From a virus (lineage: Duplodnaviria; Heunggongvirae; Uroviricota; Caudoviricetes), in IMG/VR virus record IMGVR_UViG_2648501186_000016: a stretch of DNA of 10,679 nt. The stretch is one strand, 5' to 3'. Numbering within the stretch: position 1 is the stretch's first letter; each line of letters starts with the position of its first letter. The translations under genes and the position numbers were made by a program. Below the pieces are notes generated by a model. The model was given only the letters and a program-made list of their open reading frames with translations. It was not told the origin of the DNA and did no database searches. This document shows positions 797 through 10,679 of this stretch, piece after piece.

Positions 797-1624
797 TCAG
801 GCGGCTGCACCCGCCGGTTTCTCATACTTACTGATAGTGATCTCGACCTTCCCTTTCGGGATAACCGGTCCCCACTCCACCAGCATTCTTTTCACCTGTC
901 TGTCGTCTTCCCACACACCCGCGTGGGTCAGGGCGTCAAACAGCGCCTTGTTATAGTTGTCCAGATCGCGGATCCGGTTACCCATCGCAGATACCCAGCC
1001 CGCATAGCGTTTCACACCTTCCAGCATGGTTTCGGGGTTTACCCCCTCATTCAAACGGGCTTTCCAGGCTTTGAAGGCTGCAGATTTTGAATTGCCACCA
1101 GCACGTTTGGGATATGCCAGCCATGCCTGCTCAAACTCCGGAGAGTATTCCGGTCGGTTTGAACGAACTCGCACAGACTCATCAGCAGATGCACCAACAG
1201 CTATTGGTTCATTGACTGGTTCTTTGACTGGTTCAAAAGAGTGACTGGTTCTGGGTGAATCTCCTGCATTACCCCCTGGTGCAACTCCTGCACTACCTGG
1301 TGAATTTGCTGCACCAGATAGTGAATTATTTGCACTACCCCCTAGTGAATCTCCTGCACCATCCAGATGAAGGAGATAGATATTACTTGAGTTACCTTTT
1401 TCACCTTTCCGGGTGACTTTTTTTACCAGCCCGGACTCACAAAGGGCCGCAATATGATTCATCACAGAACGTTTGCTAATCTCGCACTGGTCAGCAATAT
1501 GCTGGTAGCTGGGCCAGCACTCACCCTGATCGCTGGCATTATCAGCCAGCTTGATCAGAACCAGTTTTCGCAATGGATTACCCACTCGAATTTTCATCGC
1601 TTTAACCATCAGCGCCATACTCAT
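797..1624 (-). CDS. Phage replication initiator-like protein (N-terminal winged-helix DNA-binding domain, low-complexity linker, C-terminal domain), lambda O-like architecture
   Basis: 275-aa ORF, ATG at 1624 with GGAGG 6 nt upstream and ATGA overlap with the preceding ORF. N-terminus LRKLVLIKLADNASDQGECWPSYQHIADQCEISKRSVMNHIAALCESGLVKK looks like a wHTH replication-protein domain; the middle is a Gly/Ser/Ala/Pro-rich linker. Product assignment is by pattern recall, not search. Confidence 0.65.
   Translation of the reverse strand: MSMALMVKAMKIRVGNPLRKLVLIKLADNASDQGECWPSYQHIADQCEISKRSVMNHIAALCESGLVKKVTRKGEKGNSSNIYLLHLDGAGDSLGGSANNSLSGAANSPGSAGVAPGGNAGDSPRTSHSFEPVKEPVNEPIAVGASADESVRVRSNRPEYSPEFEQAWLAYPKRAGGNSKSAAFKAWKARLNEGVNPETMLEGVKRYAGWVSAMGNRIRDLDNYNKALFDALTHAGVWEDDRQVKRMLVEWGPVIPKGKVEITISKYEKPAGAAA
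1203..1349. repeat. Iteron-like direct repeats inside the linker-coding part of the O-like gene (candidate ori)
   Basis: TGACTGGTTC at 1213-1222, 1225-1234 and 1242-1251; GTGAATCTCCTGCA at 1255-1268 and 1335-1348; related GTGAAT...TGCAC units at about 1299-1314 and 1320-1335, giving a roughly 21-23 bp period. Confidence 0.5.
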
Positions 1625-3891: not shown

Positions 3892-4584
3892 ATGAACATA
3901 GGAAACCGAGTCAGACAACTTCGCCAGGCGAAGAACATGAAAATCGCCGATCTCGCTGAAGCAATAGGAGTGGATGCGGCGAATATCTCACGCCTGGAAA
4001 CAGGTAAGCAGAAACAATTCACTGAACAAGCCCTGAGTAATATTGCCAAGAGCTTAGGTGTTGATATTGCTGATCTCTTTACCTCAGACTTCAAAAGTAA
4101 TACTGTATGTAAAAACAGTATTAGTGAGGATGTTGCGCAGGTGAAGGATGTATTCCGTATTGAAATGCTGGATGTCAGTGCCAGTGCGGGAAATGGCCTT
4201 ATCCAGGGCGGTGATGTCATTGATGTGATTCATGCCATTGAATACAGAACTGATAATGCTGTATCGATGTTTGGTGGACGGCCAGCCAATCACATTAAAG
4301 TTATCAACGTTCGTGGGGACAGTATGTGTCCAACCATTGAGCCAGGAGATCTCATCTTCGTTGATGTCAGTATCAATCAGTTTGATGGAGATGGTATCTA
4401 TGTATTTGGTTTTGATGATAAAATTTATGTCAAACGACTGCAAATGATACCTGACAAACTACTGGTGATTTCTGATAACCAGATTTACCGTGAATGGGGA
4501 ATTACCAGCGAAAATGAACACCGGTTTATGGTCTTTGGAAAGGTCTTAATCAGCCAGTCACAAACCCTTAAGCGACACAATTAA
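3892..4584 (+). CDS. cI/LexA-type prophage repressor (N-terminal XRE HTH, C-terminal S24 peptidase autocleavage domain)
   Basis: 230-aa ORF. N-terminus NRVRQLRQAKNMKIADLAEAIGVDAANISRLETGK is an HTH; C-terminus has the Ser-Lys dyad context VRGDSMCPTIEPGDLIFVD ... YVKRLQ typical of S24 peptidases. No SD before the ATG, consistent with a leaderless transcript. Confidence 0.85.
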   Translation: MNIGNRVRQLRQAKNMKIADLAEAIGVDAANISRLETGKQKQFTEQALSNIAKSLGVDIADLFTSDFKSNTVCKNSISEDVAQVKDVFRIEMLDVSASAGNGLIQGGDVIDVIHAIEYRTDNAVSMFGGRPANHIKVINVRGDSMCPTIEPGDLIFVDVSINQFDGDGIYVFGFDDKIYVKRLQMIPDKLLVISDNQIYREWGITSENEHRFMVFGKVLISQSQTLKRHN

Positions 4585-4604
4585 CCCTTACCTCCTCATC
4601 AATT

Positions 4605-4626
4605 AGCCACCCAAAGGTGGCTTTTC
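4605..4626 (+). terminator. Intrinsic terminator downstream of the repressor gene
   Basis: Perfect 7-bp stem AGCCACC (4605-4611) / GGTGGCT (4616-4622) with CAAA loop, followed by TTTT, 21 nt after the repressor stop. Confidence 0.6.
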
Positions 4627-4639
4627 ATTACCCTTTAAA

Positions 4640-4692
4640 TTGCATATCTCGCAACAAAAACACTTGCATAATGCGCAACTTCATTTTATCTT
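4640..4692 (+). promoter_or_regulatory. PL-like promoter with two operator sites (OL-like)
   Basis: Two 15-bp palindromes TTGCATATCTCGCAA (4640-4654) and TTGCATAATGCGCAA (4664-4678) share the TTGC-N7-GCAA pattern seen in the OR region. Candidate -35 TTGCAT (4664-4669), 17-bp spacer, -10 TATCTT (4687-4692), reading toward the yfdP-like operon. Confidence 0.45.
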
Positions 4693-5152: not shown

Positions 5153-5286
5153 AAACAGAGAAGAGCATCACCGGACGACGGGCTCATAACCCAATCCATC
5201 CGGGCGGCTGCCACCGCAGGTGTTCTTCTCCGTTTTGTGGAGAAACCAACCGACCTTGCAGGGTCGATATGATGAGGAGCAGCAAA

Positions 5287-5649
5287 ATGGCTAGCGAACG
5301 CAGTACTGATGTGCAGGCATTTATTGGGGAGCTGGACGGCGGCGTATTTGAAACCAAAATCGGCGCAGTTCTCAGTGAAGTCGCTTCCGGTGTGATGAAC
5401 ACGAAAACCAAAGGTAAGGTCTCGCTCAACCTGGAAATCGAACCGTTTGATGAGAATCGTGTGAAAATCAAACACAAACTCTCGTATGTTCGCCCGACTA
5501 ACCGCGGGAAAATTTCCGAAGAAGACACCACCGAAACGCCGATGTATGTCAATCGCGGTGGTCGCCTGACTATTCTGCAGGAAGACCAGGGACAATTACT
5601 GACTCTTGCTGGTGAACCTGACGGAAAACTCCGCGCAGCAGGTCATTAA
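5287..5649 (+). CDS. yfdP: YfdP-like hypothetical protein (120 aa)
   Basis: ATG at 5287 with AGGAG at 5275-5279; the track's longer 5056 frame starts at TTG and lacks an RBS. Length and position before the YfdQ/YfdR-like genes match K-12 CPS-53 yfdP from memory; symbol is tentative. Confidence 0.55.
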   Translation: MASERSTDVQAFIGELDGGVFETKIGAVLSEVASGVMNTKTKGKVSLNLEIEPFDENRVKIKHKLSYVRPTNRGKISEEDTTETPMYVNRGGRLTILQEDQGQLLTLAGEPDGKLRAAGH

Positions 5650-5714: not shown

Positions 5715-6539
5715 ATGTCTCAGAACTTAGACGCAACCGCAATTAATCAAATCCATGCCCTTATTTCTGCTCAGGGTGTTAATGAAATTATCAGTAAGAT
5801 TGGTGCCGATGCTGTGGCATTGCCTGAGAATTTCCGCATTCATGATCTGGAAAAATTTAATTTAAATCGCTTCCGTTTCCGTGGTGCGCTTTCCACTGCC
5901 AGCATCGATGACTTTACCCGTTATTCTAAAGATCTTGCAGATGAAGGCACCCGCTGCTTTATCGATGCTGATAATATGCGTGCCGTCAGTGTGCTTAACC
6001 TGGGTACTATTGATGAACCAGGTCACGCAGATAACACCGCCACTCTCAAACTGAAAAAGACAGCACCGTTCTCTGCTCTGTTGTCTGTTAATGGCGAGCG
6101 TAACTCCCAGAAATCACTGGCAGAATGGATTGAAGACTGGGCCGACTACCTTGTGGGCTTTGATGCTAATGGTGACACCATTCAGGCAACAAAAGCGGCT
6201 GCGGCGGTCCGTAAAATCACGATTGAAGCAAACCAGACCGCTGATTTTGAAGATAATGACTTCAGCGGCAAACGCTCCCTGATGGAGTCTGTCGAAGCGA
6301 AGACTAAAGACATTATGCCAGTGGCATTTGAATTTAAATGCGTTCCGTTTGAAGGCCTTAAAGAACGTCCGTTTAAATTACGCCTCAGCATTATCACTGG
6401 CGATCGTCCTGTACTGGTTCTGCGCATTATTCAGCTGGAAGCGGTGCAGGAAGAAATGGCTAACGAATTTCGTGATCTGCTTGTTGAGAAATTTAAAGAC
6501 AGCAAAGTAGAAACCTTTATTGGTACTTTCACCGCCTGA
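5715..6539 (+). CDS. yfdQ: YfdQ-like protein (DUF2303 family, 274 aa)
   Basis: ATG at 5715 with GTGAGGA upstream; 274 aa, same length as K-12 YfdQ and in the same gene order. Assignment by recall, not search. Confidence 0.7.
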
Positions 6540-6551
6540 TTTCATTACTGC

Positions 6552-6573
6552 AAATGCCCCTGCGGGGGCATTT
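6552..6573 (+). terminator. GC-rich hairpin between yfdQ-like and yfdR-like genes (possible terminator or attenuator)
   Basis: Stem AAATGCCCC (6552-6560) / GGGGCATTT (6565-6573) with TGCG loop; the downstream U-tract is short, so termination efficiency is uncertain. Confidence 0.35.
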
Positions 6574-6666
6574 ATGGAAACATAATTTACTCAATAATCG
6601 CCGGATGGTGATGGCTTCCTTTTACCAGAATTCAGCGCGGTGCAGCGCATATACGTGGAGAACGAA

Positions 6667-7203
6667 ATGTCATTTATTAAAACTTTTTCCGGGAAGCATT
6701 TTTATTATGACAAGATAAATAAAAATGACATCGTTATTAACGATATCGCGGTTTCCCTTTCAAATATCTGTCGCTTTGCTGGTCATCTTTCACACTTCTA
6801 CAGCGTTGCCCAACATGCGGTGCTTTGCAGCCAGCTGGTACCACAGGAATTTGCTTTTGAAGCGTTAATGCATGATGCAACAGAAGCGTATTGTCAAGAC
6901 ATCCCCGCGCCACTGAAACACATTCTTCCTGACTATAAACGGATGGAAGAAAAAATAGACGCCGTAATCCGTGAGAAATACGGGTTACCCCCGGTTATGA
7001 GCACGCCTGTGAAATATCCCGATCTCATCATGCTCGCAACCGAACGCCGTGATCTCGGGCTTGATGATGGCTCTTTCTGGCCTGTACTGGAAGGTATCCC
7101 GGCAACAGAGATGTTCAAAGTTATTCCACAGTCGCCAGGCCATGCCTACGGGATGTTTATGGAACGCTTTAACGAGTTATCGGAGTTACGCAAATGCGCA
7201 TGA
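6667..7203 (+). CDS. yfdR: YfdR-like HD-domain phosphohydrolase (putative 5'-deoxynucleotidase family, 178 aa)
   Basis: ATG at 6667 with GGAG 6 nt upstream (the track's 6640 start is GTG without an RBS). HD signature: ...SVAQHAVLCSQ... and ...ALMHDATEAY.... Length matches K-12 YfdR. Confidence 0.75.
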   Translation: MSFIKTFSGKHFYYDKINKNDIVINDIAVSLSNICRFAGHLSHFYSVAQHAVLCSQLVPQEFAFEALMHDATEAYCQDIPAPLKHILPDYKRMEEKIDAVIREKYGLPPVMSTPVKYPDLIMLATERRDLGLDDGSFWPVLEGIPATEMFKVIPQSPGHAYGMFMERFNELSELRKCA

Positions 7204-7237
7204 GTCTTTCAACTGCACAACCATTGGAGGGGTAGCA

Positions 7238-7432
7238 ATGAACAACTTAATGACAACTAAACAGGTCGCCGACTTCTGTGGTGTTTCAATATCAACAGTG
7301 CTTCGCTGGAACAGCATAAACCATAGAACAGGTAAGAAATATAGACCAGACTTTCCTGATCCTGATATAAAATCCTGTCCCAATAAATGGGCATCACACA
7401 AGATTTATAGGTTTGCGGGTATTATCGAATAA
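7238..7432 (+). CDS. AlpA/excisionase-family small HTH DNA-binding protein (64 aa)
   Basis: Internal ATG at 7238 of track ORF 7049..7432, with GGAGG at 7226-7230. MTTKQVADFCGVSISTVLRW...RPDFPDP resembles the AlpA/Xis HTH pattern (compare AlpA ...ATIYDWL...ATFPKK). Confidence 0.65.
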   Translation: MNNLMTTKQVADFCGVSISTVLRWNSINHRTGKKYRPDFPDPDIKSCPNKWASHKIYRFAGIIE

Positions 7433-8164
7433 CATTTATTTGTTTCGATGTTAGCTGACACATCTATGGCACAGAGCAAAACCGAATATGATTGTCCACT
7501 CTGTGCTAGTAGAAAACATAGATATCAACTATCCGTACCAATCTATGAGTATAGAATAAATTAATCTGCTCGCAACTAATAGCCTCTAACAGCCAATACA
7601 GTGCCACCGATGATACAAAAAACAATACTCCAAAAAGCGTCTGGTATTGGATTGTCATTACTAGCTTCCGAGGTGAGATATGCATTAAGCCAGGTGCGCT
7701 GGAAAAGTTATGTTTCCCTAATGGAATTGCCCATGACTCAACATATTTTTTCTCTGTTGCTAGCGAATAGACCTAAAATGATAAGCACCATTAACATCAA
7801 CAGCGCCCCCTTGAGCTCTTCTTTTCGGTGAAAAGCCCATCATCAACGGCGCATTGCCTAACCCGAATTCTAGCCACCTTAGCCAGTATTTACCCCCTAG
7901 ATACCAAATGCTTACCCCTCTATTTGCTCTGATAATACTTTATTGCATAATCCCTCACTACATTAGACACTGCGTCAATCCTGCCTTCTATAGCTTGTTT
8001 TAACGCTTTCGGCACATTCCTCTGAACCAGCCCAAGATATGGCTGTTAAATTTTTACTTACATTCAAAAAAACTTTAACTTTTGCAATCAGATCATATGA
8101 TGTTGTTAATGGTAATATTCTGAATCTAAAATGACTTAAGAGTTCGTAGGTTAGAGGGACATGT

Positions 8165-9184
8165 ATGACTTCTGAAAGCAACAGAATTGGGAAGATGGGT
8201 GTAAACTACATAGAAGGTGTATTGACAAGATGGGGATGGGGATATCAATCAATTTCGCAAGAAAATGATGATGGGTTTGATGGCTTAATATATATAAGAT
8301 CTAAACGATTTGAGGCGAAAGATAAAGAAAACCGGAGTAAACAATCTTGGGAGTTCACTGGTGGGTTGATTCATGTACAAGTAAAAAGTGGAGATACATA
8401 CATTAGTAGTCGTAATAAAGATGAAATAAGGATCAAAATAAAAAACCTCAATGAAAAGAAGAAAATATGGTCTAGATCGTCTATTCCATGCATACTTGTA
8501 TTTGTTTTTTGGGATCATAATGAAGTTGAGTATTCCTACTGGGCTGATCTTAAATCTGAATTAACTTATTGTGATAACAGTAGTACGCTAATAAAAATCC
8601 CCTTAAAAAATAGATTTATGAGATCCCAAGAGTGTAAGGGGCCTTTAAGACGACTTGCAAGGGTATCGGCCAACTATGCAGATAAGCCGCTGATAGATTT
8701 ATCAAAATTTGACTCATTAAGTGGTAAGCTACCTACAAGTCTAAACAGTAACCTAAATTGTTCTTTGAAAAAGAAAGGTATTGAATTCTATCAGAAATGG
8801 CGATTAATTGGGGCTACAAACCCTTATTTTGGTCCTGTTCTAATAAACAGAACTGGTTGGAGTCATATAACTCGACGAAATCGCCCAATAGCAAGAATTG
8901 AAGCAAGCTTTAATTTGTTACCTTTAGCAGCAAGAATTATAAATGATGTATCTACATGGCGAATGTTAACACCCGTACGACGGTATGATAATAGAAAGGA
9001 TGGTTATGTTTGCTTTATAGATTTCGTTGGGTTAACAGCCAAAGTGAATTTAAAGAATCGCAACTCATCAGAAGTTATGGTTGTGTTAAAAAGGGAGAGG
9101 AGGTATAAACAGGGTGAAGACTGTTCCTCTGCGAAAACAAGATTATGGTTTTACACTGTTTATGAACCTGGAAGAGGAAAATAA
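8165..9184 (+). CDS. Cargo protein with N-terminal Mrr/DUF4365-like PD-(D/E)xK nuclease-fold domain and uncharacterised C-terminal domain; candidate anti-phage defense or Abi effector
   Basis: 339-aa ORF, ATG at 8165 with AGAGGG 6 nt upstream. N-terminus IGKMGVNYIEGVLTRWGWGYQSISQENDDGFDGLIYI...GGLIHVQVKSGDTYI...IPCILVFVFWDHNEVEYSYWADL fits the DUF4365/Mrr pattern (G-rich start, GW, D-x-GxDG, QxK, hydrophobic strand plus YW). Gene is about 32% GC in two hand-counted 60-bp samples versus about 50% in flanks. Confidence 0.75.
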   Translation: MTSESNRIGKMGVNYIEGVLTRWGWGYQSISQENDDGFDGLIYIRSKRFEAKDKENRSKQSWEFTGGLIHVQVKSGDTYISSRNKDEIRIKIKNLNEKKKIWSRSSIPCILVFVFWDHNEVEYSYWADLKSELTYCDNSSTLIKIPLKNRFMRSQECKGPLRRLARVSANYADKPLIDLSKFDSLSGKLPTSLNSNLNCSLKKKGIEFYQKWRLIGATNPYFGPVLINRTGWSHITRRNRPIARIEASFNLLPLAARIINDVSTWRMLTPVRRYDNRKDGYVCFIDFVGLTAKVNLKNRNSSEVMVVLKRERRYKQGEDCSSAKTRLWFYTVYEPGRGK

Positions 9185-9393
9185 ATTGAGGCGGTACAAT
9201 CGCGCTCAGGCTGTCCCAGACGTGATGCATAACACCACCGGTTCCAGAATTTAAGGATCTGGACCTTCAATTATGCGTGTACCGCCTTATGCAACAATAC
9301 TATAAAATTATTAAACGTCAAGATGTTCAATAAGATTTGGGCTTTCATGCCACAACACGAAAGTTCATTTTATAACGTCTAAAGCTTTCACAA

Positions 9394-9422
9394 TGTCCGC
9401 TTTTCGCAGCTCAAAGCGGACA
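9394..9422. terminator. Inverted repeat between convergent cargo and integrase genes (possible bidirectional terminator)
   Basis: 10-bp stem TGTCCGCTTT (9394-9403) / AAAGCGGACA (9413-9422) with 9-nt loop; flanks are only moderately U-rich on either strand. Confidence 0.3.
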
Positions 9423-9455
9423 GTCATATTTGATTGTATTCTGGCTACTGGAGCC

Positions 9456-10679
9456 TCAGTTAGAGTCTGAGATAGTACAAGTAATGATCGATTCAACTCT
9501 CTCCCACCATGCCTGGTAGGCTTTACGCTGTTCTTCTAGATAATCGCTCTTATCATAAACTTGCCATACCCCTGGCAGTTTATGGCCGAGCATTATTTCT
9601 GCAATATGAGGCGCAGTAAGATCAGAAAAGTTTGTTCGTGCTGTTCGCCTCAAATCATGAAGAGACCAATGAGGGAATTGATACCCCAAACGCCGCCATG
9701 CGTACTGCATTAAATTGTAAGGCAGCGACTGCAATGATGTTCGTCCAACGGGTTCCCTGCTTCCTTCCTTAGTAAAAAGCATATCGGAACCATTGTTCAT
9801 AGAGATAACGTACTTTATAAGCTCTTCAACCGGTTCAATAATGGGGCGCTTTAGCGGTTCGCCTGTTATATCCCCTGTCTTATGTCGTTCTGGCGGTACA
9901 GTCCATACCTTATTAATGAAATCAAAATCATCCACCCTAGCGGTAATTAGCTCTGAACTACGGCAGCCAAAATGCAGCAATAGTTTAATGAAGGCCCGGT
10001 ATTTAGGAACCATTCGAGAACCATCGATCGCAGCATAAAGGATTTTAATTTCATCATGTGTCAGAAACCGTTTCTTCTGACCTTTACGGATATCCATATC
10101 TTTACCCGTGATATCCGACAGCGGGCGGGTTTCAATGAGCTTTCTCTTATAGGCCCAGACATGGGCCTGCTTTGCGTTAATTAGCAATCGGTCTGCTATT
10201 GCTGGAGTCTTAGTGCTAAGAGGCTCTAAGACTTCTAACCAATCATGCAATGTAGCTGCATCGTGAGGGATACTCCCGATTTTAGAGAACAGGTGCAGCT
10301 CAAACGAGCGGAGTATCTGTTCAGAACCTTTTTTATTTTTTACACAATATGCTTCATACCAGGCACGGATCACAGACTCTACCGTCATGGCTTCAGTAGC
10401 TTTTCGTTTTTCAGCCTGCTTGACCAATCGTGGATTACGGTTTGACTCGAGTTCACCACGAAGACGGAGAACTTCTTCTCTGGCCTCTTTTAATCCAGTT
10501 GCCGGGTAAGTTCCGATATCAAGACGCTCACCTTTCCCTGCCCATTGATAACGATATTGGAACACTACGCGACCTTTCGGTGATACTCTGACAGACAGAC
10601 CATCACGATCGGATTTAACCAAAACCTTATCACGTTCCTTTCCAACGACTGAACGCAACCACGCATCAGACAGCGCCAT
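9456..10679 (-). CDS. Tyrosine-type site-specific integrase, P4/CP4-57-like family
   Basis: 407-aa ORF whose ATG is the last three bases of the window. N-terminus MALSDAWLRSVVGKERDKVLVKSDRDGLSVRVSPKGRVVFQYRYQWAGKGERLDIGTYP resembles the arm-binding domain of P4-type integrases; C-terminus carries the recombinase signature (R in GCRSSEL, HDLRRTART, LGHK, Y in VYDKSDY). Confidence 0.9.
   Translation of the reverse strand: MALSDAWLRSVVGKERDKVLVKSDRDGLSVRVSPKGRVVFQYRYQWAGKGERLDIGTYPATGLKEAREEVLRLRGELESNRNPRLVKQAEKRKATEAMTVESVIRAWYEAYCVKNKKGSEQILRSFELHLFSKIGSIPHDAATLHDWLEVLEPLSTKTPAIADRLLINAKQAHVWAYKRKLIETRPLSDITGKDMDIRKGQKKRFLTHDEIKILYAAIDGSRMVPKYRAFIKLLLHFGCRSSELITARVDDFDFINKVWTVPPERHKTGDITGEPLKRPIIEPVEELIKYVISMNNGSDMLFTKEGSREPVGRTSLQSLPYNLMQYAWRRLGYQFPHWSLHDLRRTARTNFSDLTAPHIAEIMLGHKLPGVWQVYDKSDYLEEQRKAYQAWWERVESIITCTISDSN

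What the first reader, a model, noticed from the sequence alone, without database searches (positions are those of the whole stretch)
7433..9455. Compositionally distinct island inserted between the AlpA-like gene and the integrase
Hand counts give about 25% GC at 8041-8100 and about 32% at 8281-8340 and 8761-8820, versus about 53% at 5281-5340 and about 47% in the integrase. The island holds 730 bp with no convincing ORF, then the single cargo gene, then 270 bp of structured non-coding DNA. This looks like a recently acquired variable cargo module.
Basis: seen in the sequence. Interest (0 to 1): 0.6.

Follow-up and report, generated by a model that had tools for sequence, protein, structure and literature searches.

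The report
Prophage cargo: nuclease with antisense RNA
The AT-rich island is a real swappable cargo slot next to a prophage integrase, and its cargo is a rare predicted DNA-cutting enzyme always paired with a previously undescribed small structured RNA gene on the opposite strand, which looks like a toxin–antidote style anti-phage module.

Summary
The cargo gene has GC3 of 0.28. Sister prophages carry other cargo there, including a dGTPase defence gene.

The "ORF-free" 730 bp holds a decayed gene of a ~110-aa membrane-tailed protein. The cargo (8165-9184) is a two-domain protein. Its N-terminal DUF4365 PD-(D/E)xK nuclease domain has an intact DxGxD…QxK motif. Its C-terminal domain is family-specific and has no known relative.

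The main new result concerns the "structured 270 bp". It contains a ~105-nt structured small-RNA gene on the minus strand (9182-9290) with its own conserved promoter (-10 9294-9299, -35 9316-9321), convergent on the nuclease gene. The RNA accompanies the gene in every proteobacterial homolog examined (≥38% protein identity) and was found nowhere else. It shows strong covariation, is more conserved than the coding sequence, and matches no Rfam family.

Best reading: a mobile nuclease-toxin/RNA-antitoxin-like defence module. The mechanism is inferred, not shown.

The parts
7238..7432 (+).
   Evidence: phrog_1553 excisionase E 2.6e-34; weak HTH_17/MerR Pfam hits; about 80% DNA identity to the copy in sister prophages. 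Not annotated by PGAP in the source record.
7447..7507 (.). Conserved left flank of the slot; 7472-7507 is the left arm of a 36-nt imperfect inverted repeat whose partner is 9408-9443
   Evidence: Conserved in L002-L004 up to about 7483-7506. Inverted-repeat alignment 28/36 identical, score above all 2000 shuffles. An uninterrupted ~75-bp version exists in an ST131 strain (L017 5001-5076).
7507..9408 (.).
   Evidence: Homology breakpoints against three sister prophages with other cargo (A2, A3); GC 0.373 vs 0.473 for the rest; present in 22/5426 E. coli genomes.
7579..7886 (-). Pseudogene: decayed homolog of a ~110-113-aa protein with a C-terminal transmembrane tail; remnant of earlier cargo
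   Evidence: tblastn of three intact homologs (L008, L009, L010) gives two segments in different frames with in-frame stops, combined E 4e-20. DNA homology 70% over 7453-8008 to a P2-like prophage D-ogr island. Strain E1 lacks 7538-7949, so the stretch is dispensable.
8103..8159 (+). Possible promoter (TTGTTA-18-TAAAAT, 8103-8132) and ribosome-binding site GAGGGA (8154-8159) of the cargo gene
   Evidence: Consensus scan, but promoter-like sites in the region are not above chance (4 found, 7.8 expected). Only the RBS is conserved among homologs. Weak evidence for the promoter.
8165..9184 (+). Cargo gene: 339-aa two-domain protein. N-terminal DUF4365 PD-(D/E)xK nuclease (res ~1-160); family-specific C-terminal domain (res ~190-339)
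9182..9290 (-). Core of a conserved structured small RNA (~105 nt): a 12-bp closing helix enclosing three hairpins. Its 3' end and the following U-run overlap the stop codon and last codons of the cargo gene
   Evidence: Covariance model hit 97.7 bits. Fold z = -3.8 to -4.3. 23 copies: 94.8% cells paired vs 82.6% shuffled, 17/28 pairs with compensatory changes, 0/500 shuffles reach the observed covariation. Minus strand favoured. More conserved than the CDS in 21/21 pairs. No Rfam family.
9294..9321 (-). Promoter of the small RNA on the minus strand: -35 TTGACG (9321-9316), 16-nt spacer, -10 TATTGT (9299-9294)
   Evidence: Found by scan. Hexamers and the 16-nt spacing are conserved in 12 non-redundant copies while the spacer sequence varies. 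Distant copies have an extended -10 TGnTAnnnT at the same position.
9394..9422 (.). 10-bp perfect hairpin (TGTCCGCTTT / AAAGCGGACA, 9-nt loop) between the convergent cargo and integrase genes; probable bidirectional terminator. The right homology boundary falls inside it
   Evidence: Inverted repeat I23; part of the MFE structure on both strands. The 3' arm is conserved in sister prophages, the 5' arm is not.
9408..9443 (.). Right arm of the 36-nt inverted repeat; conserved right flank of the slot
9456..10679 (-). Tyrosine integrase (P4/IntS-like architecture), right neighbour of the slot; the prophage end and yjjG lie beyond the window
   Evidence: Pfam Arm-DNA-bind_3, Phage_int_M, Phage_integrase; annotation of the source record.

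Best explanation
The island is the variable cargo slot between the excisionase and the integrase of a defective CPS-53/KpLE1-like lambdoid prophage at the E. coli yjjG site. Cargo is exchanged there by recombination through the conserved flanks, and leftovers of earlier cargo remain (the pseudogene at 7579-7886). The current cargo is a self-contained mobile module of two genes. One is a 339-aa protein whose N-terminal DUF4365 domain is a PD-(D/E)xK DNase with an intact catalytic motif. The other is a convergent ~105-nt structured small RNA with its own consensus-like promoter. Proposed mechanism (inferred): the nuclease is a latent toxin, and the abundant, probably short-lived RNA keeps it silent. 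It could do so by pairing with the overlapping 3' end of the nuclease mRNA (type I-like), or, as I think somewhat more likely given the deeply conserved unpaired motifs, by binding the protein's Arg/His-rich C-terminal domain (type III-like). When an infecting phage shuts off host transcription or degrades RNA, the RNA is lost. The nuclease then becomes active, possibly by oligomerising as DREN domains do in SPARDA, and degrades DNA, which aborts the infection and protects the lysogen population. Shown computationally: the slot, its variability, the module's mobility, the nuclease fold and motif, and the RNA's existence as a selected, structured, minus-strand element strictly linked to the gene. 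Inferred: expression of the RNA, toxicity, the antitoxin role and the anti-phage function.
Confidence: 0.55

Rival explanations
1. The conserved structured element is not a separate RNA gene. It is the 3' untranslated region or terminator of the nuclease mRNA (plus strand), for example a stabiliser or a protein-binding autoregulatory site, and the apparent minus-strand promoter is fortuitous.
For: The element starts directly at the stop codon and folds well on the plus strand too (z -4.3). Most helices are Watson-Crick on both strands (83.8% of cells still pair on the plus strand). Promoter-like matches in the region are not more frequent than chance.
Against: 47 G-U cells on the minus strand become A-C mismatches on the plus strand, against 2 the other way. 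Free consensus folding favours the minus strand (-26.8 vs -19.8 kcal/mol, covariation term only on minus). The -35/-10 hexamers keep their position and 16-nt spacing across 12 lineages while the spacer varies, and distant copies keep an extended -10 at the same place.
Confidence: 0.15
2. The protein is a constitutive Mrr-like (type IV-like) restriction nuclease. The C-terminal domain reads a feature of foreign DNA, such as a modification, and the RNA merely tunes expression. There is no toxin-antitoxin or abortive-infection logic.
Confidence: 0.15
3. The gene is a free-standing homing-type endonuclease, a selfish element that spreads between phage genomes by cutting cargo-less sites, rather than a host-beneficial defence gene.
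Against: In E. coli it occupies one slot that also holds unrelated cargo, so occupancy is not driven by this gene. Homologs also sit in non-phage chromosomal defence islands. Fusions to TIR/CHAT/EAD11 and a convergent RNA gene are not features of homing endonucleases. It is absent from 50,697 sequenced phage genomes.
Confidence: 0.08
4. The island is simply decaying junk in a defective prophage, and the gene is on its way to loss and has no current function.
For: The prophage lacks structural genes within 6 kb of the window. Part of the island is a pseudogene and is deleted in strain E1. One strain (K_EC180) has a copy 1 nt shorter, and no DUF4365 CDS is listed for it, although one search does list one under its match.
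Against: The ORF is intact in 21 of 22 copies with an identical protein accession. The protein family keeps 27 invariant residues across 37 homologs down to 34% identity. The RNA is under purifying selection.
Confidence: 0.05

Closest known systems
Prophage cargo ('moron') and defence hotspots, e.g. the P2/P4 hotspots of Rousset et al. 2022 (PMC9122126) and their 2026 follow-up (PMC13586616)
   Same: Conserved flanks bracket a variable, compositionally deviant segment. Known defence genes occupy the same slot in relatives (dGTPase). The same cargo gene appears in other prophage hotspots (P2-like gpS-gpV gap, lambdoid Q-holin gap).
   Different: This slot lies between the excisionase and integrase of CPS-53/KpLE1-like lambdoid prophages at yjjG, not in P2 or P4. 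I found no description of this particular slot, but I did not search for one exhaustively.
SPARDA (short Argonaute + DREN-APAZ; PMC10810196, PMC12205087)
   Same: The effector domain belongs to the same Pfam family (DUF4365 = DREN), has the same QxK-type PD-(D/E)xK motif, and is an RNA-associated immune nuclease.
   Different: There is no Argonaute gene nearby and no APAZ domain. The C-terminal domain is unrelated, and the family profile finds no SPARDA chain in the PDB. The RNA here is a dedicated, genome-encoded structured RNA rather than guides sampled from transcripts.
Divona, a single-gene DUF4365 defence from the Vibrio cholerae chromosomal integron (bioRxiv 10.1101/2024.07.02.601686)
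   Same: A single protein with N-terminal DUF4365 plus an extra C-terminal domain. It is experimentally anti-phage. The authors report blastp homologs in E. coli chromosomes less than 20 kb from integrases.
   Different: Its C-terminus is described as Crr6-like (PF08847), whereas the window protein has no Pfam hit there at E<=10. No V. cholerae locus carries the C-domain motifs among species-representative genomes. Divona is an integron cassette with attC, while here the gene is prophage cargo with an sRNA gene. The sequence was not retrievable, so homology is untested.
RalR/RalA type I toxin-antitoxin of cryptic prophage rac (PMC4041452)
   Same: A non-specific DNase toxin controlled by a small RNA antitoxin and carried by a defective E. 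coli prophage.
   Different: RalR is a 64-aa protein (size from my own knowledge) with no detected relation to this family. [quoted passage not shown] Here the RNA is convergent, overlaps the 3' end, and is a larger multi-helix RNA with conserved unpaired motifs.
Type III toxin-antitoxin systems (ToxIN and relatives; review PMC4147584)
   Same: A structured RNA antitoxin proposed to bind and inhibit a nuclease toxin, and abortive infection triggered by loss of a labile RNA. The C-domain has a weak resemblance to RNase-toxin folds.
   Different: ToxI-type antitoxins are tandem repeats upstream of the toxin on the same strand and are processed by an endoRNase toxin. Here the RNA is a single-copy convergent gene, no tandem repeats were seen, and the recognisable catalytic domain is a DNase.

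Membership tests
Prophage variable cargo / defence hotspot | Conserved flanks with variable content among related prophages | tested here: met
   Breakpoints at about 7507 and 9408; four different cargos in the same slot; segment in 22 genomes against flanks in about 4,800.
Prophage variable cargo / defence hotspot | Composition and codon usage deviating from the backbone | tested here: met
   GC 0.373 vs 0.473; GC3 0.279 vs 0.38-0.52; largest RSCU distance.
Prophage variable cargo / defence hotspot | Recognised defence systems among the alternative cargos | tested here: met
   L002 cargo = PADLOC dGTPase, E 1.7e-104. The other alternatives have no PADLOC or Pfam match.
DUF4365 / DREN PD-(D/E)xK nucleases (PF14280) | Pfam model above the gathering score | tested here: met
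   68.6 bits against a cut-off of 24.3, residues 10-153.
DUF4365 / DREN PD-(D/E)xK nucleases (PF14280) | Catalytic motif DxGxD...QxK (PMC11297309; Q/K in PMC10810196) | tested here: met
   D35 D36 G37 D39, Q72 and K74 are invariant in 37 homologs.
DUF4365 / DREN PD-(D/E)xK nucleases (PF14280) | PD-(D/E)xK fold | tested here: met
DUF4365 / DREN PD-(D/E)xK nucleases (PF14280) | Nuclease activity | not testable with these tools
   Needs biochemistry.
SPARDA | APAZ domain fused to the nuclease | tested here: not met
   The PADLOC Aga_REase hit covers only residues 3-131. The C-domain has no Pfam hit and no PDB relative by profile.
SPARDA | Adjacent short Argonaute gene | tested here: not met
   The neighbours are a pseudogene and the integrase. 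No Argonaute appears in any homolog context.
Divona (integron DUF4365 defence) | N-terminal DUF4365 in a single-gene system | tested here: met
   (no conserved protein partner).
Divona (integron DUF4365 defence) | C-terminal Crr6-like (PF08847) domain | tested here: inconclusive
   hmmscan finds nothing at E<=10, but the authors used HHpred, which is more sensitive.
Divona (integron DUF4365 defence) | Sequence homology to the V. cholerae N16961 protein | not testable with these tools
   The sequence and locus tag are not in the held text or supplement. There is no Vibrio among named homologs or among loci with the C-domain motifs.
Type I toxin-antitoxin | Antisense RNA gene with its own promoter overlapping the toxin transcript | tested here: met
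   Computationally only: a conserved minus-strand promoter and structured RNA whose 3' end overlaps the stop codon.
Type I toxin-antitoxin | Small (usually <60 aa) hydrophobic toxin | tested here: not met
   The toxin candidate is a 339-aa soluble nuclease. RalR (a DNase) is a known exception (PMC4041452).
Type I toxin-antitoxin | Toxicity neutralised by the RNA | not testable with these tools
   Needs genetics.
Type III toxin-antitoxin | Tandem-repeat RNA antitoxin upstream of, and co-transcribed with, an endoRNase toxin | tested here: not met
   The RNA is a single-copy convergent gene, and no tandem repeats occur in 7200-9600. No Rfam ToxI-type hit.
Any Rfam RNA family | Covariance-model match | tested here: not met
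   cmscan at E<=1 over 7200-9600, both strands: only a chance miRNA hit elsewhere.
Integron attC site | Single imperfect hairpin with R''/R' core sites (RYYYAAC...GTTRRRY) after the cassette ORF | tested here: not met
   By inspection of A8/A9 the element is a three-hairpin multi-branch structure without the core sites and has a conserved promoter. The core-site consensus is from my own knowledge.

The most novel reading that the evidence does not exclude
The module is a new kind of RNA-controlled immune nuclease. A dedicated, structured ~105-nt RNA is bound by the family-specific C-terminal domain and holds a DUF4365 DNase inactive. This would be a type III-like toxin-antitoxin with a DNase toxin, or alternatively an RNA cofactor that licenses or targets the nuclease. 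If so, the RNA is a new RNA family and the C-domain a new RNA-binding fold.
Probability: 0.3. Interest if true: 0.8.

Novelty: new variant of a known kind. Interest (0 to 1): 0.62.

Why it matters
The island itself is an ordinary example of a prophage cargo hotspot. The value lies in what it carries. DUF4365/DREN is so far understood mainly as the effector of Argonaute-based SPARDA systems. Here the same effector appears in a compact, mobile, Argonaute-free module that is invariably linked to a conserved structured RNA that is not in Rfam and was mentioned in none of the papers I read. If the RNA is the antitoxin or cofactor, this would add a DNase-toxin/RNA-antitoxin class to bacterial immunity. 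It would also give a simple two-part system (about 1.2 kb) for studying how DREN nucleases are kept off and switched on, and it might yield an RNA-gated nuclease tool. The slot between excisionase and integrase at the yjjG site is never empty in 1,268 records and could be mined for further unknown defence genes; three alternative cargos there have no family assignment.

Tried and rejected
(1) Known RNA families: cmscan at E<=1 found nothing in the element.
(2) Known defence families: PADLOC gives only partial N-terminal hits, and PHROGs gives none.
(4) Divona identity: no locus tag or sequence in the paper, its held supplement or two citing papers.
(5) The element independent of the gene: 48 of 61 pattern hits looked like this at first but proved to be chance matches of a 17-base pattern.
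(6) The RNA next to the ~30%-identity homologs, the stand-alone C-domain genes and the CHAT/EAD11 fusions: none found, even with filters off for the ~30%-identity homologs and the fusions.
(7) An empty slot: no E. coli record has the two flanks within about 780 bp of each other.
(8) attC-site reading of the element: rejected on architecture, missing core sites and the conserved promoter.
(9) A hidden small ORF in the element: rejected, because loop indels are not multiples of three and substitutions are compensatory in helices.
(10) Phage genomes: the gene is absent from 50,697 deposited phages.
Full report
**What the window is.** The window is identical to E. coli ETEC4073 chromosome NZ_CP122660.1, positions 4060297-4070975. 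It is the regulatory and integration arm of a CPS-53/KpLE1-like lambdoid prophage. The gene order is KilA-N, Rha, ymfL, cro-like and cI-like repressors, yfdP, yfdQ, yfdR, a 64-aa excisionase, the cargo gene, and a tyrosine integrase that abuts yjjG. PGAP did not annotate the excisionase. It matches phrog_1553 with E 2.6e-34. No head or tail genes lie within 6 kb to the left, so the prophage looks defective.

**The observation.** A 300-nt sliding window gives GC of 0.33-0.37 across roughly 7950-9150, against 0.45-0.55 for most of the sequence. The cargo gene has GC 0.354 and GC3 0.279, while nine backbone genes have GC3 of 0.38-0.52. Its codon usage is the most deviant in the window. Smaller AT-rich dips exist near 4350-4650 and 6450-6750, but this is the deepest and longest.

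**Is it a variable module?** Yes.
- The whole window matches in about 4,800 of 5,426 complete E. coli genomes, but the segment 7433-9455 occurs in only 22, always at 99.8-100% identity.
- In all contexts inspected it lies between yfdR/xis and the integrase at the yjjG site, yet the surrounding prophages differ in immunity region and other modules. The segment has therefore moved between prophage backbones recently.
- Sister prophages at the same site carry something else between the same flanks: a dGTPase, a 413-aa protein, or a 342-aa protein. The dGTPase matches the PADLOC dGTPase defence family at E 1.7e-104.
- BLAST breakpoints and alignments put the variable part at 7507-9408.
- A flank-only query found no record among 1,268 in which the two flanks are closer than about 780 bp, so the slot is never empty in this collection.

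**The 730 bp 'without ORF'.** At 65-70% DNA identity this stretch matches annotated genes elsewhere. The homologs encode 110-113-aa proteins with a hydrophobic C-terminal tail. They are found in a P2-like prophage D-ogr island, on a 3.7-kb plasmid next to RnlAB, and on a pO111 plasmid next to an AAA ATPase. In the window the copy (7886 to 7579, minus strand) is broken by a frameshift and in-frame stops. Strain E1 lacks 7538-7949 altogether. This part of the island is therefore the wreck of an earlier cargo, not regulatory DNA. Only the ribosome-binding site upstream of the cargo gene is conserved among homologs. The promoter-like match at 8103-8132 is weak evidence.

**The cargo protein.**
- Family: the 339-aa product has a DUF4365 domain (PF14280, 68.6 bits, residues 10-153). 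It belongs to a family of ~340-aa proteins in Gamma- and Betaproteobacteria, with ~30%-identity relatives in Bacteroidota.
- Rarity: 23 loci in about 185,000 species-representative genomes, and 94 clusters among 1.84 billion representative proteins for the C-terminal domain.
- Catalytic motif: across 37 homologs D35, D36, G37, D39, Q72 and K74 are invariant. This is the DxGxD...QxK signature. Mutating it abolishes toxicity of the DUF4365 toxin EAT16 (PMC11297309), and its Q/K residues were the ones mutated to make the inactive control of the SPARDA DNase (PMC10810196).
- Architecture: the C-domain is essentially confined to this architecture. One metagenomic locus has the two domains as adjacent genes. 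A few members carry an extra N-terminal EAD11, CHAT or TIR domain. These are hallmark domains of prokaryotic conflict systems.

**Context of homologs.**
- A 75%-identical copy lies alone, on the opposite strand, between Q and the holin of a Yersinia lambdoid prophage.
- A 64% copy lies between gpS and gpV of an Enterobacter P2-like prophage.
- A 59% copy lies between integrase and a 64-aa xis-like gene of a Klebsiella prophage.
- Others lie next to a type II R-M pair (Acinetobacter), between an OLD-family ATPase-nuclease and a 1,471-aa NOV_C protein (Pseudomonas), next to type I R-M plus CBASS, or next to a reverse transcriptase.
- No protein-coding neighbour is conserved.
- The gene is absent from 50,697 deposited phage genomes and nearly absent from plasmids.

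**The 270 bp 'structured non-coding DNA'.** The stretch folds better than shuffled controls on both strands (z about -4.3). It has two parts.

The distal part is a perfect 10-bp hairpin at 9394-9422 that straddles the right homology boundary. It is probably the bidirectional terminator between the convergent cargo and integrase genes.

The proximal part is the main new result. The DNA from the stop codon to about 9321 is more conserved than the coding sequence among E. coli, Yersinia, Enterobacter, Klebsiella and Acinetobacter copies.
- Promoter and layout: read on the minus strand it shows a -35 TTGACN, a 16-nt spacer whose sequence varies freely, and a -10 TATTGT/TAATGT. These are followed by a ~105-nt structure (a 12-bp closing helix around three hairpins) and a U-rich run that overlaps the stop codon and last codons of the nuclease gene.
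- Linkage to the gene: a 20-nt pattern from the element hit 61 viral or metagenomic contigs. Exactly 13 contain the whole element, and all 13 have the nuclease gene ending 10-17 nt upstream. The other 48 are chance matches.
- Depth of the association: a covariance model built from 12 non-redundant copies finds the element on the minus strand directly after the stop codon in homologs as distant as 38-44% protein identity. These include Pseudomonas, Rahnella, Kluyvera, Methylomicrobium, a betaproteobacterium and an Acidobacteriota MAG (E 1e-9 to 3e-6).
- Covariation: on the 23-copy alignment 94.8% of cells pair, against 82.6 ± 0.8% in shuffles. 17 of 28 pairs show compensatory double changes (94 cells against 31 ± 5), no shuffle reaches the observed covariation, and sliding the partners by 1-3 columns collapses pairing to 26-45%. 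The alignment was fitted to the model, which inflates pairing somewhat, but the compensatory changes in helices 1, 3 and 4 are visible in the raw MAFFT alignment.
- Strand: the same pairs give 97.3% pairing with 47 G-U cells on the minus strand, against 83.8% with 2 G-U cells on the plus strand. Unbiased consensus folding gives -26.8 kcal/mol (minus) against -19.8 kcal/mol (plus).
- Selection: in all 21 pairwise comparisons the RNA (70-96% identity) is more conserved than the CDS (60-85%) and far more than third codon positions (38-79%).
- Distribution: in E. coli the RNA is in exactly the 22 genomes that have the gene, at 100% identity. It matches no Rfam family. It was not detected beside the ~30%-identity homologs, stand-alone C-domain genes or CHAT/EAD11 fusions.

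**How it most likely works.** The following are shown computationally: a mobile two-gene module (about 8150-9321), a DNase-type catalytic domain under selection, and a selected, structured, minus-strand RNA with its own promoter convergent on the nuclease gene. The rest is inferred. A non-specific DNase carried as lone cargo needs a safety catch. A dedicated RNA with a near-consensus promoter, while the nuclease has no conserved promoter of its own, is the arrangement expected for an RNA antitoxin made in excess.

There are two sub-models.
- (a) Type I-like. The RNA pairs with the overlapping 3' end or read-through 3' UTR of the nuclease mRNA and triggers its decay. 3'-overlapping type I pairs work this way (my own knowledge: txpA/RatA, bsrG/SR4). 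A DNase toxin with an sRNA antitoxin is known in prophage rac (RalR/RalA, PMC4041452).
- (b) Type III-like. The RNA binds the protein, plausibly through the Arg/His-rich C-domain, and blocks the oligomerisation that DREN domains need for activity (PMC12205087).

I lean slightly to (b). A purely cis-antisense RNA needs complementarity only, whereas this RNA keeps invariant unpaired motifs and a multi-helix architecture across protein divergence down to 38% identity. In either model, phage-induced transcription shut-off or RNA decay would release the nuclease and abort the infection.

My confidence is about 0.9 that this is a mobile cargo module in a hotspot, about 0.8 that the RNA is a real minus-strand gene, about 0.6 that the module functions in defence or as a toxin-antitoxin, and about 0.3-0.4 for either specific sub-model.

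**Comparison with known systems.** The module shares its effector domain with SPARDA but fails both other defining features, having no APAZ domain and no Argonaute. It resembles Divona, a validated single-gene DUF4365 defence from the V. cholerae integron whose E. coli homologs are reported near integrases. I could neither obtain that sequence nor find the Crr6-like domain described for it, so the relationship is open. It works like a type I or type III toxin-antitoxin but fits neither definition fully. The hotspot itself is a known kind of feature (PMC9122126, PMC13586616). I therefore rate the finding as a new variant of a known kind. The paired RNA is the unexpected part.

Noticed in passing
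window 7472-7507 and 9408-9443; L017 5001-5076; L008 6001-6567 and 8757-8844: The two conserved flanks of the cargo slot are 36-nt imperfect inverted repeats of each other (28/36). An uninterrupted ~75-bp version with a 10-bp hairpin exists in another prophage remnant of ST131-type strains, so the cargo lies where the hairpin loop would be. The same left and right flank sequences also bracket the whole D-ogr cargo island of a P2-like prophage (L008), including about 25 nt of integrase 3' coding sequence. This suggests the flanked unit was transferred from a lambdoid to a P2-like phage. The mechanism (terminator split by insertions or a recombination site) is unknown.
   Followed up: partly
window 7579-7886 (-); L008 6123-6452, L009 2001-2339, L010 3000-3338: The small (~110 aa) C-terminally membrane-anchored protein whose pseudogene lies in the island recurs at the edges of other defence-like cassettes: next to RnlAB on a 3.7-kb plasmid, next to an AAA ATPase on a pO111 plasmid, and next to a 655-aa unknown protein in a P2-like prophage. 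It has no Pfam match. Its function is unknown.
   Followed up: partly
window 7203-7238: A second variable slot lies between yfdR and the excisionase. It is empty here but holds a hypothetical gene plus DUF551 in strain CH4797, and a PAPS-reductase/SspD-like gene plus a hypothetical gene in strain MB30.
   Followed up: partly
window about 7433-7445: Four swine ETEC/O139 strains (W13-16, ETEC6333, ETEC6334, ETEC1701) have an IS3-family transposase annotated under their match to the window (3 pieces, 95% coverage). Their match to the island starts only at position 13 of the segment. The insertion point was not mapped.
   Followed up: no
window 797-1624 (-): The 275-aa ORF corresponds to a truncated helix-turn-helix replication-type gene run into the tail of a RusA gene. 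Sister prophages have LexA-like, PerC/yfdN and methyltransferase genes between them, so this prophage carries an internal deletion there. It lacks structural genes nearby, consistent with a defective prophage.
   Followed up: no
strain K_EC180, NZ_CP062203.1 4269657-4271678: The K_EC180 copy of the island is 1 nt shorter than the others. No DUF4365 CDS is listed for it, although one search does list one under its match. The small-RNA region is 100% identical. This may be a frameshifted nuclease with an intact RNA.
   Followed up: no
L003 13725-14966 (-), L004 11844-12872 (-), L008 6671-8638 (-), L011 9160-9999 (-): Other cargo genes in this slot or next to homologs (413 aa, 342 aa, 655 aa, 279 aa) have no PADLOC match, and the first three have no Pfam match. 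The 279-aa Yersinia gene has a sub-threshold HEPN_Cthe2314 hit. These are candidate unknown defence genes.
   Followed up: partly
NZ_OL790696.1 3667304-3668266 (listed among plasmids but 4.8 Mb): An E. coli record encodes a full-length relative at only 26% identity, with no feature listed under the match. A paper on ST131 notes an integrase plus a DUF4365 gene beside a type I R-M island (PMC9225575). E. coli therefore has at least one further, distant lineage of this architecture, possibly the 'Divona in E. coli' of the integron study.
   Followed up: no
window 9321-9380: Between the small-RNA promoter and the boundary hairpin, the minimum-free-energy fold contains another long hairpin. This stretch is not conserved with the gene in other contexts; homology ends at about 9307-9321. 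Its role, if any, is unknown.
   Followed up: no
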